Assembly: GCF_003790525.1 (NCBI RefSeq)
Contig: NZ_CP033635.1
Direction: 5' to 3' (one strand)
Length of the DNA stretch: 64,000 nucleotides
DNA from: Escherichia coli
GTDB lineage: Bacteria; Pseudomonadota; Gammaproteobacteria; Enterobacterales; Enterobacteriaceae
Shown: piece after piece, positions 42,383 through 44,304 of the stretch
Layout: each line of letters starts with the position of its first letter
How positions within the stretch are numbered: the first letter of the stretch is position 1
Notes under the pieces: generated by a model
Databases searched by the model: none
Told to the model about the DNA's origin: nothing
What the model saw: only the letters and a program-made list of their open reading frames with translations
Program-made: the position numbers and the translations under genes

Positions 42383-42859
42383 CTATCTGCACTGCTCATT
42401 AATATACTTCTGGGTTCCTTCCAGTTGCTTCTGCATCGTCATCAACCGTTCTCTGAGGGTGAAATAATCCCGTTCAGCGGTGTCTGCCAGTCGGGGGCTG
42501 GTTGCATTATCCACGCCGGAGGCGGTGGTGGCTTCACGCACTGACTGACAGACTGCTTTGATGTGCAACCGACGACGACCTGCGGCAACATCATCACGCA
42601 GAACATCATTTTCAGCTTTCGCATCAGCTAACTCCTTCGTGTATTTTGCATCGAGCGCAGCAACATCACGCTGACGCTGCTGCATGTCAGCGATGGTGGC
42701 GATCGCCTGCTTCAGCTCACTGACTTTTTTATCGCGCTGCTCTTTGTAAGTGATGGCGTTATCGCGGTAATGATTGACCGCCCACGACAGGCAGACGATG
42801 ATGCAGATAACCAGAGCATAAATAATCGCGGCGACTCTGCTCACTGATCTATTCCCCAA
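42383..42859 (-). CDS. i-spanin Rz
   Basis: 158-aa, N-terminal TM plus coiled coil, lambda Rz-like. Confidence 0.85.
42442..42624 (-). CDS. o-spanin Rz1, embedded in Rz in the +1 frame
   Basis: 60-aa lipoprotein [23 protein letters not shown] with proline-rich PPPPPAW. Confidence 0.75.
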
Positions 42860-43374
42860 CAGGCTAATGCGCTTTCCTGGTCACGACGAATAACCTGTCC
42901 GTAGCAGTTATTTGAACGTGTGCGGCAATCACGCCCACCGTCCTTAATCCACCAGCGAATCGACTCACAGGCACCTTTACGATCACCGGCATTAAGCCGC
43001 TTATAAAACGTCGACGGGAAACACTTACCGGGGCCAATGTTATAGGGACAGAATGACGCTATACCCGCTTTCTGTGGTTCGGTCAGTGGTACTTTAATAT
43101 TGCGCTCCACCCATGCCAGCGCCTTATCACGCTCAATGGCATTAACCTGAGCGCATTTTTCCTTCGACAGCTTCATTCCCGGTATGACGGGCTTACCATC
43201 CACCATTGTGGCACCACGACAGATGGTCCATATACCGGAACCATCGCGGTATGCCGTTGTGTGGTTACCTTCTTTTTCATCCAGAAACTGGTCGAGAATA
43301 TCAGGCGCAGGCGCACCGACGGCAATCAGTGCCAGAACGGCAGCCGACAGGCCGTATCTGATTTTTGCGTTCAT
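42841..43374 (-). CDS. SAR endolysin (phage lysozyme)
   Basis: 177-aa; N-terminal hydrophobic SAR-like segment; E...D...T catalytic spacing ([22 protein letters not shown]). Confidence 0.85.
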
Positions 43375-43497
43375 GTATATTTATCAGGATCTAAAGGTTT
43401 ATAACCCTGGATATATCAGGTATATAATCCAGTACCAGCATGTCTCATAAACATACCCGTTCAGGAAAACCAAACGACAACAGATGAGGCTTCAGAA

Positions 43498-43875
43498 ATG
43501 AACAGTAAAGAAAATTTGCGCAGTAGATTTTTGCAACTAATGACAGAAAAAGTTAAATCAGCGCTACTTCCACTTATGGTGGATAATAACGAAGCAACGA
43601 GCAGCATCCTTGCAGACCCTTACGGTAAACTCTCGCATAAAACGCTGGATATTATTATGAGTGCATTAACACCCCGTATGCTTCAACACCTGAAACAAGA
43701 TATTAACGCATGGGTGAATGAAGAATTGAGCCCCCCCTGTTCATGGGACAGACATTATGCATGGCAGCAAAAAATGAGGATTTTCAATTCATTATCACTA
43801 AAGTTCAGAGAACCGAAACAGCGTCCCTTCCCTCTGGAATCAGATAAAAAACAACCTGATCCCACAGGCCCGTAA
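43498..43875 (+). CDS. hypothetical protein, antisense moron inside the lysis cassette
   Basis: 125-aa ORF with GAGG 8 nt upstream and a TATATAAT -10-like element at ~43428; no recognisable domain. Confidence 0.5.
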   Translation: MNSKENLRSRFLQLMTEKVKSALLPLMVDNNEATSSILADPYGKLSHKTLDIIMSALTPRMLQHLKQDINAWVNEELSPPCSWDRHYAWQQKMRIFNSLSLKFREPKQRPFPLESDKKQPDPTGP

Positions 43876-44031
43876 TATTTTGAATACCGTGATTATTGAT
43901 ATCACAATGAAAGCTATTCCGCACAGTTATGCCCTGCTCCCCACGGGGCATGCCTCATGAAACGTTCCGGGCGTTTCATGTTCCCGGATTTTGTTAAAAG
44001 GTATATTATCCCCTCACTCCCGGGATATTCG

Positions 44032-44304
44032 TCATATTTCTTTTGGTGCCTTTTTCGCAATCTCAGCCACAGCATGTGCCGTAGCCGGAACATTACCGGC
44101 ATTAGTTCGTTCCAGAATTTCGAGCAATATGCGGGTTCGTTTTTCCTGCTCCCGTTTGTTAAGGCGATAAGTAAGAACGCCAAGAATGATACTGAACGCC
44201 ACGCCGATAATAAATCCCCAATCCTGCAGTGACAGGCTGGCAAAGAACGCAACAAGTCCTGCGCTGCCGTATGCAGCGTTACTGTATCGTTCGTCCATTC
44301 TCAT
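44032..44304 (-). CDS. putative S21-like (pin)holin with dual-start motif
   Basis: MRMDERY... (Met1-Arg2-Met3), two TM segments (AAYGSAGLVAFFASLSL / WGFIIGVAFSIILGVLTY) and charged C-terminus, resembling phage 21 pinholin. Confidence 0.6.
   Translation of the reverse strand: MRMDERYSNAAYGSAGLVAFFASLSLQDWGFIIGVAFSIILGVLTYRLNKREQEKRTRILLEILERTNAGNVPATAHAVAEIAKKAPKEI

What the first reader, a model, noticed from the sequence alone, without database searches (positions are those of the whole stretch)
42383..44304. Lysis cassette: dual-start pinholin, SAR endolysin, Rz with embedded Rz1
The holin candidate begins Met1-Arg2-Met3 (the holin/antiholin dual-start arrangement) and has the two-TM S21-like architecture. 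The endolysin has an N-terminal hydrophobic SAR-like segment. The pinholin plus SAR-endolysin pairing is internally consistent. Rz1 is fully embedded in the +1 frame of Rz with a lipobox and a penta-proline run.
Basis: partly seen in the sequence, partly recalled or inferred. Interest (0 to 1): 0.35.

Follow-up and report, generated by a model that had tools for sequence, protein, structure and literature searches.

The report
Ordinary lambdoid prophage lysis cassette
This is a standard lysis gene set of a lambda-like E. coli prophage: a small two-helix holin with two start codons, a membrane-exported lysozyme, and the Rz/Rz1 spanin pair. It is correctly read by the first stage, already catalogued in databases, and unusual only in being a recombinant with a 657-bp insert between holin and lysozyme.

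Summary
On the minus strand lie four genes:
- A 90-aa class II holin (44032-44304) that starts Met-Arg-Met.
- A 177-aa GH24 lysozyme (42841-43374), 92% identical to E. coli K-12 RrrQ.
- Rz (42383-42844, GTG start), 91% identical to lambda Rz.
- Rz1 (42442-42624), fully embedded in the +1 frame of Rz and 92% identical to lambda Rz1.

The holin has a weak first and a strong second hydrophobic helix. It is 35% identical to the phage-21-type holin EssD. It scores below the Pfam cut-offs of both the S21 and HP1 holin families, whose founders are both experimentally supported pinholins. Across 80 viral loci of its own 90-aa family:
- The M-(K/R)-M start and a GxxxSxxxG motif in helix 2 are invariant.
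- 77 loci are followed directly by a lysozyme with an R21-like SAR N-terminus.

- The cassette is not contiguous. A 657-bp spacer carrying an opposite-strand conserved ORF (43498-43875) separates holin and lysozyme. This mosaic occurs in only 19 of 5,426 complete E. coli genomes.
- SAR versus cleavable signal peptide is likely but unproven for this lysozyme.

Verdict: ordinary, already known, low interest.

The parts
44032..44304 (-). Class II holin / putative pinholin, 90 aa. Dual start: Met1 at 44304-44302, Met3 at 44298-44296. TMD1 is about residues 10-26 and TMD2 about 30-48. A 44-residue charged C-terminal tail follows.
   Evidence: ORF. PHROG 1350 'holin' 3.1e-29. Pfam HP1-holin 22.4 bits and S21-holin 19.6 bits, both below cut-off. 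35% identical to EssD and EssQ. Hydropathy. M-[KR]-M and G34xxxS38xxxG42 invariant in 80 loci.
44309..44351 (-). Predicted RNA hairpin (10-bp perfect core) in the holin leader. Its 3' arm contains the GGAGG Shine-Dalgarno that serves Met1. A second purine tract, GAGGGA, lies between the hairpin and the AUGs.
   Evidence: Fold of -28.7 kcal/mol over 95 nt, z = -2.6. A hairpin at the same place is predicted in all 30 distinct family leaders. A composition-preserving shuffle control did not separate it from chance, so this is inconclusive.
43375..44031 (.). 657-bp spacer between holin and endolysin, not part of the lysis machinery. It is the mosaic junction. Phage-database DNA similarity to the endolysin module stops at about 43414.
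   Evidence: The holin-plus-spacer DNA is found in only 19 of 5,426 complete E. coli genomes.
43498..43875 (+). Opposite-strand ORF of 125 aa and unknown function. It is a moron-like passenger that travels with RrrQ-type endolysin genes.
   Evidence: PHROG 1853, 4.8e-41. 47% identical to 104-aa proteins at the same position and orientation in Stx2 phage 86 and Stx2_12E129. RefSeq marks it as a partial pseudogene in sister genomes.
42841..43374 (-). GH24 (T4-lysozyme-fold) endolysin of 177 aa, RrrQ/Stx-phage type, with an N-terminal export segment (probable SAR domain, residues about 7-24) and E35-D44-T50.
   Evidence: Pfam PF00959 3.8e-24. 92% identical to K-12 RrrQ. 34% identical to RrrD/R21 with the catalytic triad aligned. 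AlphaFold2 pLDDT 89, with residues 11-30 at 95-97. Foldseek aligns 171-181 columns to full-length R21 and the DLP12 endolysin.
42383..42844 (-). Rz i-spanin, 153 aa. GTG start overlaps the endolysin stop. N-terminal TMD at residues 4-22. Cys99 and Cys152 are present.
   Evidence: Pfam PF03245 1.6e-52. 91% identical to lambda Rz. Hydropathy.
42442..42624 (-). Rz1 o-spanin lipoprotein, 60 aa, wholly embedded in the +1 frame of Rz. Lipobox VVG|C20, Cys29, PPPPP at 32-36.
   Evidence: Pfam PF06085 5.9e-20. 92% identical to lambda Rz1. Frame offset 1.

Best explanation
This is the late-operon lysis module of a lambdoid E. coli prophage, and it works by the pinholin / SAR-endolysin / spanin route.

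Shown:
- Four intact genes of the right families lie in the right order downstream of Q, two phage tRNAs and a porin moron.
- Rz and Rz1 are about 91-92% identical to lambda's.
- The lysozyme is 92% identical to RrrQ.
- The holin is a two-helix class II holin with a conserved M-(K/R)-M start.

Inferred:
- The lysozyme is exported by the Sec system through its N-terminal segment. It stays tethered and inactive in the inner membrane.
- The holin is translated from Met3 as the effector and from Met1 as a slower antiholin carrying one extra positive charge.
- The holin accumulates, its weakly hydrophobic first helix leaves the bilayer, and the second helices (GxxxSxxxG face) assemble small holes that collapse the membrane potential.
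- Depolarisation releases and refolds the lysozyme, which degrades the murein.
- Rz in the inner membrane and lipoprotein Rz1 in the outer membrane then disrupt the outer membrane.

The module is a recombinant. A holin of a family that normally overlaps an R21-type endolysin has been joined, through a 657-bp spacer carrying an opposite-strand passenger gene, to an RrrQ-type endolysin-Rz-Rz1-bor block.
For: Gene content and families.

Holin:
- Homology to the phage-21-type holins EssD and EssQ across both helices.
- Hydropathy shows a weak TMD1 (60% G/A/S/T) and a strong TMD2.
- Charge distribution fits an N-in/C-in topology, and the longer form carries one more positive charge.
- M-[KR]-M in 17 of 17 and 80 of 80 family members, and GxxxSxxxG in 80 of 80.
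- 77 of 80 family loci have an abutting lysozyme (gap -4 to +3) with an R21-like Gly/Ala-rich N-terminus. The same holds in the cultured phages PhiR46_1, UPF_BP1 and 29485.
- The founders of both nearest families are experimentally supported pinholins: HP1 (PMC7312051) and S21 (PMC9025707).

Endolysin:
- Catalytic E35/D44/T50 align with R21.
- In 22 family members the hydrophobic segment is almost as conserved as the enzyme body (0.81 against 0.89 majority fraction), while the n-region is not (0.40).
- In this allele the Ala-x-Ala-type sites are followed by Pro (VGA|P, APA|P).
- AlphaFold2 places residues 11-30 with pLDDT 95-97, and the model aligns over its whole length to full-length R21 (3HDE) and the DLP12 endolysin (4ZPU).
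- Stx-phage endolysins of this group are already predicted to be SAR, paired with pinholins: PMC8136144.
- In K-12 Qin the same lysozyme type sits with the S21-type holin EssQ.

Spanins.
Against: - No experiment exists on this holin family or on RrrQ-type lysozymes in the searched literature.
- The holin scores below the gathering cut-off of both Pfam pinholin families.
- The lysozyme's hydrophobic stretch is only about 15-17 residues, shorter than R21's roughly 20. Its 19-residue insertion score is poor (Hessa sum 5-6 against 0.8 for RrrD).
- Many family members have unblocked AGA|S or ASA|I sites, so a cleaved signal peptide is possible.
- The leader hairpin is not distinguishable from composition-matched shuffles.
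- The AlphaFold2 model of the holin is low confidence (pLDDT 60).
- Holin and endolysin are separated by 657 bp with two weak terminator-like hairpins on the lysis strand. An IS5 also sits in the late-transcript path upstream. Expression in this particular prophage is therefore unverified.
Confidence: 0.8

Rival explanations
1. The lysozyme carries an ordinary cleavable Sec signal peptide. It is secreted as a soluble periplasmic enzyme, as with fOg44 Lys44, rather than membrane-tethered through a SAR domain. The holin would then act only as the depolarising trigger or timer.
For: - The hydrophobic core is short at about 11-15 residues. It is followed by a Gly/Ala/Ser/Pro c-region that looks like a signal peptide.
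- The 19-residue insertion score is unfavourable.
- Many family members have permissible -3/-1 sites such as AGA|S and ASA|I.
Against: - In this allele the best Ala-x-Ala-type sites are followed by Pro at +1. From established knowledge of signal peptidase I, Pro at +1 blocks cleavage.
- The hydrophobic segment is conserved nearly as well as the catalytic body.
- AlphaFold2 models it at pLDDT 95-97 as part of a fold that aligns full-length to active R21.
- By inference, a freely active periplasmic muramidase would lyse E. coli before the holin fires.
Confidence: 0.2
2. The 90-aa protein is a canonical large-hole class II holin rather than a pinholin.
For: - It fails the gathering cut-offs of both pinholin Pfam families.
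- It has a 44-residue cytoplasmic tail that S21 lacks.
- Hole size cannot be read from sequence.
Against: - Its only detectable relatives are the S21 and HP1 families.
- TMD1 is SAR-like in composition.
- The TMD2 GxxxSxxxG motif is invariant.
- 77 of 80 family members are coupled to lysozymes with an R21-like N-terminus and none to a signal-less lysozyme.
Confidence: 0.15
3. The cassette is an unexpressed relic. The recombination junction, the convergent passenger gene and the upstream IS5 have uncoupled holin and endolysin expression, so the genes are intact but not functional as a unit in this prophage.
For: - There is a 657-bp spacer with two terminator-like hairpins on the lysis strand.
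- No obvious Shine-Dalgarno precedes the endolysin ATG, by direct reading of the sequence.
- An IS5 is inserted between Q/pR' and the holin.
- The mosaic is rare, at 19 of 5,426 genomes.
- A sister prophage has an IS66-disrupted terminase.
Against: - All four ORFs are intact and highly conserved.
- The same spacer ORF plus endolysin arrangement occurs in inducible Stx phages.
- From established knowledge of lambda Q, Q-modified RNA polymerase reads through terminators.
- Head, portal, terminase and replication ORFs around the cassette are present in the window.
Confidence: 0.2

Closest known systems
Phage 21 / DLP12 lysis cassette (S21 pinholin with S21-71 antiholin, R21 SAR endolysin, Rz/Rz1); K-12 homologues essD-rrrD-rzpD/rzoD
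   Same: - Same gene order, followed by bor.
- Two-helix holin with a dual start: M-K-S-M in S21/EssD, M-R-M here.
- Weak TMD1 and a GxxxSxxxG motif in TMD2.
- GH24 endolysin with E35-D44-T50 and an N-terminal export segment.
- Embedded Rz1.
   Different: - The holin is only 35% identical, has a 2-residue instead of an 8-residue inter-helix loop, and has a 44-residue tail.
- It scores below the PF04971 cut-off.
- The endolysin is 34% identical, has a shorter hydrophobic segment, and has 8 Cys instead of 4.
- Holin and endolysin do not overlap but are 657 bp apart.
Haemophilus phage HP1 hol/lys (HP1 holin family PF16080; pinholin plus SAR endolysin, PMC7312051)
   Same: - It is the best Pfam match of the holin (22.4 bits). 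Relatives 76-78% identical carry precomputed PF16080 hits.
- Two predicted helices, a charged C-terminal tail, and a partner lysozyme with an N-terminal membrane segment.
   Different: - The HP1 holin is 78 aa and has no dual start. The window protein is 90 aa with a conserved dual start.
- The score is below the family cut-off of 28.8.
Qin prophage / Stx-phage lysis region (essQ-ydfR-rrrQ-rzpQ; S-ydfR-[reverse ORF]-R-(ant)-Rz in Stx2 phage 86)
   Same: - The endolysin is 92% identical to RrrQ.
- The reverse-oriented ORF upstream of R is shared with Stx2 phages.
- These endolysins and holins are already predicted to be SAR and pinholin (PMC8136144).
   Different: - The holin here is the 90-aa family rather than the 71-aa S21-type EssQ/S.
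- ydfR is absent.
- The spanin is lambda-type Rz/Rz1 rather than Qin's RzpQ/RzoQ (DUF2514).
Phage lambda S-R-Rz-Rz1-bor
   Same: - Rz is 91% and Rz1 92% identical.
- The Met-Lys/Arg-Met dual start is spaced as in S107/S105.
- bor lies on the opposite strand just downstream.
- An upstream hairpin overlaps the first Shine-Dalgarno. Its resemblance to lambda's sdi structure is recalled from memory and was not tested.
   Different: Lambda S is a three-helix large-hole holin and lambda R is a signal-less transglycosylase. Neither is homologous to the holin or lysozyme here.

Membership tests
S21 (phage 21) pinholin family, Pfam PF04971 | Profile score at or above the curated gathering cut-off | tested here: not met
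   19.6 bits against a cut-off of 26. Pairwise homology to EssD is still significant (35% identity, E = 1e-6).
S21 (phage 21) pinholin family, Pfam PF04971 | Two transmembrane helices, N-in/C-in, with a weakly hydrophobic Gly/Ala/Ser-rich TMD1 that can leave the membrane | tested here: met
   Hydropathy: TMD1 at residues 10-26 (KD 1.5, 60% G/A/S/T); TMD2 at residues 30-48 (KD 2.6 over 15 residues). The basic cluster RLNKREQEKRTR follows TMD2. AlphaFold2 gives helices 6-25 and 28-67 at low confidence. Actual exit of TMD1 from the membrane is not testable here.
S21 (phage 21) pinholin family, Pfam PF04971 | Dual translational start giving an antiholin with an extra N-terminal positive charge | tested here: met
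   M1-R2-M3. M-[KR]-M is present in 17 of 17 homologues and 80 of 80 viral loci. The longer form has one more positive charge. Use of both starts is not testable here.
S21 (phage 21) pinholin family, Pfam PF04971 | Glycine-zipper-type motif in TMD2 used in pinhole assembly | tested here: met
   G34xxxS38xxxG42 aligns with the EssD motif and is invariant in 80 of 80 loci. The motif's role in S21 is cited in PMC9025707.
S21 (phage 21) pinholin family, Pfam PF04971 | Forms small (about 2 nm or less) holes that depolarise the membrane but do not pass proteins | not testable with these tools
   Needs expression and leakage assays.
HP1 holin family, Pfam PF16080 | Profile score at or above the curated gathering cut-off | tested here: not met
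   22.4 bits against a cut-off of 28.8. Many relatives 72-78% identical carry a precomputed PF16080 hit. These hits are marked 'faint' where context was read.
SAR endolysin (R21 type) | GH24 lysozyme domain with the Glu-8aa-Asp-5aa-Thr catalytic triad | tested here: met
   PF00959 3.8e-24. E35, D44 and T50 are invariant and aligned with R21 and RrrD.
SAR endolysin (R21 type) | N-terminal basic residues followed by a weakly hydrophobic, Gly/Ala/Ser-rich membrane segment | tested here: inconclusive
   K4 and R6 are followed by Y7-A23, which is 53% G/A/S/T with KD 2.15 over 15 residues. The stretch is only about 15-17 residues long. Its 19-residue score is much weaker than RrrD's.
SAR endolysin (R21 type) | The segment is not cleaved by signal peptidase and becomes part of the folded active enzyme | tested here: inconclusive
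   For:
- Pro at +1 of the Ala-x-Ala-type sites in this allele, and high conservation of the segment.
- pLDDT 95-97 for residues 11-30 and full-length structural alignment to 3HDE and 4ZPU.

Against: permissible cleavage sites in many relatives.

No signal-peptide predictor was available and no experiment was found.
SAR endolysin (R21 type) | Release from the membrane and activation on depolarisation | not testable with these tools
   Needs fractionation before and after adding an energy poison.
Lambda-type two-component spanin Rz/Rz1 (embedded architecture) | Rz: N-terminal transmembrane anchor, periplasmic coiled-coil domain, Pfam PF03245 | tested here: met
   PF03245 1.6e-52. TMD at residues 4-22. 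91% identical to lambda Rz, including Cys99 and Cys152.
Lambda-type two-component spanin Rz/Rz1 (embedded architecture) | Rz1: lipoprotein with a lipobox, proline-rich, encoded entirely within Rz in the +1 frame | tested here: met
   PF06085 5.9e-20. Lipobox VVGC20, PPPPP at 32-36, offset 1, and 42442-42624 lies inside 42383-42844. 92% identical to lambda Rz1.

The most novel reading that the evidence does not exclude
The 90-aa enterobacterial holins form a distinct, uncharacterised pinholin subfamily that bridges the S21 and HP1 families. Its features:
- An invariant lambda-style Met-(Lys/Arg)-Met dual start.
- A 44-residue cytoplasmic tail.
- A leader hairpin that occludes the first ribosome-binding site.

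In this prophage the subfamily has been re-partnered by recombination with a non-cognate RrrQ-type endolysin. The join goes through a spacer carrying a conserved opposite-strand gene (PHROG 1853), which could itself modulate lysis or serve as a lysogenic-conversion moron.
Probability: 0.3. Interest if true: 0.3.

Novelty: already known. Interest (0 to 1): 0.12.

Why it matters
It matters little beyond annotation. The result confirms that pinholin plus SAR-type endolysin plus Rz/Rz1 is the common lysis design of lambdoid E. coli prophages. It also shows module swapping within the cassette, since holins are not endolysin-specific.

Modest practical value:
- The 90-aa holin is still called 'hypothetical protein' in many RefSeq genomes and could be renamed.
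- RrrQ-type lysozymes remain experimentally untested for SAR behaviour.
- A conserved reverse-strand gene sits inside the lysis region of Stx-type phages and has no known function.

Tried and rejected
- Leader hairpin as a conserved lambda-sdi-like element. A hairpin covering the first Shine-Dalgarno is predicted in all 30 distinct family leaders, with several different stem sequences. Shuffling the upstream bases while keeping composition gave almost the same pairing probability (median 0.70 against 0.62). I do not claim it.
- AlphaFold2 of the holin gave pLDDT 60 and pTM 0.28. It is usable only for helix boundaries.
- NCBIfam gave no model for the holin, Rz1 or the spacer ORF.
- Literature searches for experiments on RrrQ, EssQ or YdfR, or on SAR behaviour of this lysozyme type, found none. 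PMC11657625 turned out to be about an unrelated Salmonella phage.
- The 113-aa minus-strand ORF 43914-44255, which overlaps the holin in another frame, and the plus-strand ORFs 43957-44232 and 43991-44170 are treated as chance ORFs. The 113-aa ORF had no Pfam match; the two plus-strand ORFs were not scanned.
- The TTG start for Rz at 42859 was rejected in favour of the GTG at 42844.
- The PHROG alignment (profile positions 57-158 of 159) suggested that the spacer ORF is 5'-truncated. This was not upheld: the Stx-phage homologues are 104 aa and align from residue 1.
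Full report
**What is there**

ORF listing of 41000-46000 shows the following on the minus strand:
- A 90-aa ORF at 44032-44304, beginning MRMDERY.
- A 177-aa ORF at 42841-43374.
- A 158-aa ORF at 42383-42859, with a TTG start.
- A 60-aa ORF at 42442-42624, inside the previous one.

Profile searches identify them as follows.

| Gene | Pfam | PHROG |
|---|---|---|
| Holin | HP1-holin PF16080, 22.4 bits (cut-off 28.8); S21-holin PF04971, 19.6 bits (cut-off 26) | 1350 'holin', 3.1e-29 |
| Endolysin | PF00959, 3.8e-24 | 7 |
| Rz | PF03245, 1.6e-52 | not used here |
| Rz1 | PF06085, 5.9e-20 | not used here |

A Bor lipoprotein gene follows on the plus strand (about 42058-42351).

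**Spanins**

With the GTG at 42844, which overlaps the endolysin stop as GTGA, Rz is 153 aa. It is 91% identical to lambda Rz without gaps. Rz1 is 92% identical to lambda Rz1. It has the VVGC lipobox, Cys29 and the PPPPP run, and it lies wholly inside Rz at a +1 offset. This part is textbook.

**Holin**

Hydropathy shows a weak first segment at residues 10-26 (60% Gly/Ala/Ser/Thr) and a strong second segment at residues 30-48. They are joined by only Gln-Asp. The basic cluster RLNKREQEKRTR and a 44-residue charged tail follow.

The protein is 35% identical to the phage-21-type holins EssD and EssQ of K-12 across both helices. It falls below the curated cut-offs of both Pfam families, so I do not file it as a member of either.

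Its own family is large and uniform. There are 115 clusters, mostly of exactly 90 aa, in Escherichia, Salmonella, Serratia, Yersinia, Hafnia, Providencia and others.
- In an alignment of 17 homologues plus EssD, M3 is invariant, M1 nearly so, and position 2 is Lys or Arg.
- In 80 IMG/VR loci (27 distinct proteins), every one starts M-K-M-D or M-R-M-D.
- Every one also carries G34xxxS38xxxG42, which aligns with the TMD2 motif of the S21 type.

The dual start is therefore a conserved feature, not chance. The longer form has one more positive charge at the N-terminus. In S21 that is what retards exit of TMD1 and makes an antiholin (PMC9025707).

**Who the holin normally works with**

In 77 of the 80 viral loci, a lysozyme gene begins within -4 to +3 bases of the holin stop. 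Its N-terminus is of the R21 kind (for example MNSSLRKAV.AAIGGGAIAIASVLI). None has a signal-less lysozyme.

The same is seen in the cultured phages PhiR46_1, UPF_BP1 (a P22-like Lederbergvirus) and Salmonella phage 29485, and in three metagenomic contigs.

The founders of the two nearest families are both experimentally supported pinholins paired with SAR endolysins: S21, and HP1 (PMC7312051). This is the main support for calling the 90-aa protein a pinholin. Hole size itself is untested.

**Endolysin**

The endolysin is 92% identical to K-12 RrrQ of the Qin prophage, and 94-97% identical to very abundant E. coli prophage and Stx-phage lysozymes. It is 34% identical to RrrD/R21, with E35, D44 and T50 aligned.

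Its N-terminus is [24 protein letters not shown]. That gives two basic residues followed by about 15-17 apolar or small residues. This is shorter than R21's segment and scores worse as a 19-residue membrane helix.

Arguments that it is retained (SAR) rather than cleaved:
- In this allele, every Ala-x-Ala-type site is followed by Pro.
- The hydrophobic segment is nearly as conserved as the enzyme body (0.81 against 0.89), whereas the n-region is not (0.40).
- AlphaFold2 (mean pLDDT 89) models residues 11-30 at pLDDT 95-97. Foldseek aligns 171-181 columns to full-length R21 (3HDE) and the DLP12 endolysin (4ZPU), against about 150 for signal-less lysozymes.
- A published survey already predicts these Stx-phage endolysins to be SAR with an R21-like N-terminal domain, paired with pinholins (PMC8136144).

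Arguments against:
- Many relatives have permissible cleavage sites such as AGA|S or ASA|I.
- I found no experiment on this lysozyme type.

I rate SAR at about 0.7 and a cleavable signal peptide at about 0.2. Either way the enzyme is exported independently of the holin, which fits a small-hole holin.

**The cassette is a mosaic**

DNA similarity to phage records covers bor-Rz-R and stops about 40 bp upstream of the endolysin start, near window 43414. The holin matches other phages only within its coding sequence, at 75-83%.

The 657 bp in between, together with this holin allele, occur in only 19 of 5,426 complete E. coli genomes. Most of the listed hosts are poultry-associated, and all matches are at 99.5% identity or more. 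In those genomes RefSeq calls the holin 'phage holin family protein' or 'hypothetical protein'.

The spacer carries a plus-strand ORF of 125 aa (43498-43875; PHROG 1853, unknown function). This ORF is 47% identical to 104-aa proteins encoded at the same place and in the same reverse orientation upstream of R in Stx2 phage 86 and Stx2_12E129. It therefore travels with the RrrQ-type endolysin and is probably a real passenger gene.

The most economical history is a recombination. It replaced the holin's cognate, overlapping R21-type endolysin with an RrrQ-type block of reverse ORF, R, Rz, Rz1 and bor. Because holins are not endolysin-specific, function should be retained, but that is inference.

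**Context**

Upstream on the lysis strand are two phage tRNAs (44720-44873), an IS5 (about 45331-46525), a plus-strand porin gene (46672-47778) and a Q-family antiterminator gene (47957-48379). This is the same Q-porin-S layout as DLP12 and phage Perceval. Packaging and head ORFs lie downstream and replication ORFs upstream, so the element looks like a largely complete lambdoid prophage.

The IS5 and two weak terminator-like hairpins in the spacer lie in the path of the late transcript. From established knowledge, Q-modified polymerase should read through them. Expression here is unverified.

**Leader RNA**

The holin leader folds into a 10-bp hairpin whose 3' arm holds the GGAGG that serves Met1 (-28.7 kcal/mol over 95 nt, z = -2.6). 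A second purine tract lies before the AUGs. All 30 distinct leaders of the family are predicted to form a hairpin at that position, with different stem sequences. However, a composition-preserving shuffle control gave similar pairing. I report it as suggestive only.

**Comparison and novelty**

In mechanism and layout this is the phage 21 / DLP12 / Qin / Stx-phage type of lysis region, with lambda's own spanins. It differs in three ways:
- The holin's subfamily: 90 aa, a long tail, and below both Pfam cut-offs.
- The re-partnering with an RrrQ-type lysozyme.
- The non-overlapping, interrupted arrangement.

All four proteins are already in RefSeq with appropriate or near-appropriate names, and the system type is well described. 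I rate it already known, with low interest (0.12).

The most novel reading not excluded has two parts. First, the 90-aa holins are a distinct uncharacterised pinholin subfamily with lambda-style dual-start control. Second, the reverse-strand ORF has a role in lysis or lysogenic conversion. I put its probability at about 0.3 and its interest, if true, as modest.

Noticed in passing
window 44720-44796 (-), compared with L003:7393-7469 and L002:13345-13421: The phage tRNA just upstream of the holin has anticodon TCT (Arg) here. The homologous tRNA in sister prophages (strains GF60 and 24A16CRGN010) has TTT (Lys), with accompanying changes in the anticodon stem. This is an apparent anticodon switch between alleles of one prophage tRNA gene. 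The neighbouring tRNA (CAT) is called Met by ARAGORN and Ile by RefSeq.
   Followed up: partly
window about 45331-46525: An IS5 copy (transposase ORF 45396-46376) is inserted with a TTAG target duplication 146 bp upstream of the prophage porin gene. The site lies in the path of Q-dependent late transcription toward the holin. The insertion is absent from strain GF60. K-12 DLP12 also has an IS5 at its porin gene.
   Followed up: partly
window 43498-43875 (+): A conserved opposite-strand ORF (125 aa, PHROG 1853, unknown function, no Pfam hit) lies between holin and endolysin. Homologues sit in the same place and orientation in Stx2 phages. A perfect TATAAT and a GAGG lie upstream of it. RefSeq annotates it as a partial pseudogene in sister genomes.
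   Followed up: partly
window 46672-47778 (+): A prophage-borne OmpF/OmpC-like porin gene (368 aa) lies between Q and the lysis genes on the opposite strand, as with nmpC in DLP12 and the porin of phage Perceval.
   Followed up: no
window 42841-43374 (-), protein positions 52, 74, 109, 118, 136, 150, 157, 172: The RrrQ-type lysozyme has eight cysteines, against four in R21/RrrD, and none in the N-terminal segment. The four extra ones are conserved across the family. They could form additional periplasmic disulfides, possibly regulatory or stabilising.
   Followed up: no
window 42010-42351 (+) compared with L002/L003 downstream of Rz: The window has bor downstream of Rz, as in lambda. The sister prophages that share the holin-spacer-endolysin block instead carry small hypothetical ORFs and a TonB-family fragment there. 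This marks a second mosaic breakpoint, right after Rz.
   Followed up: no
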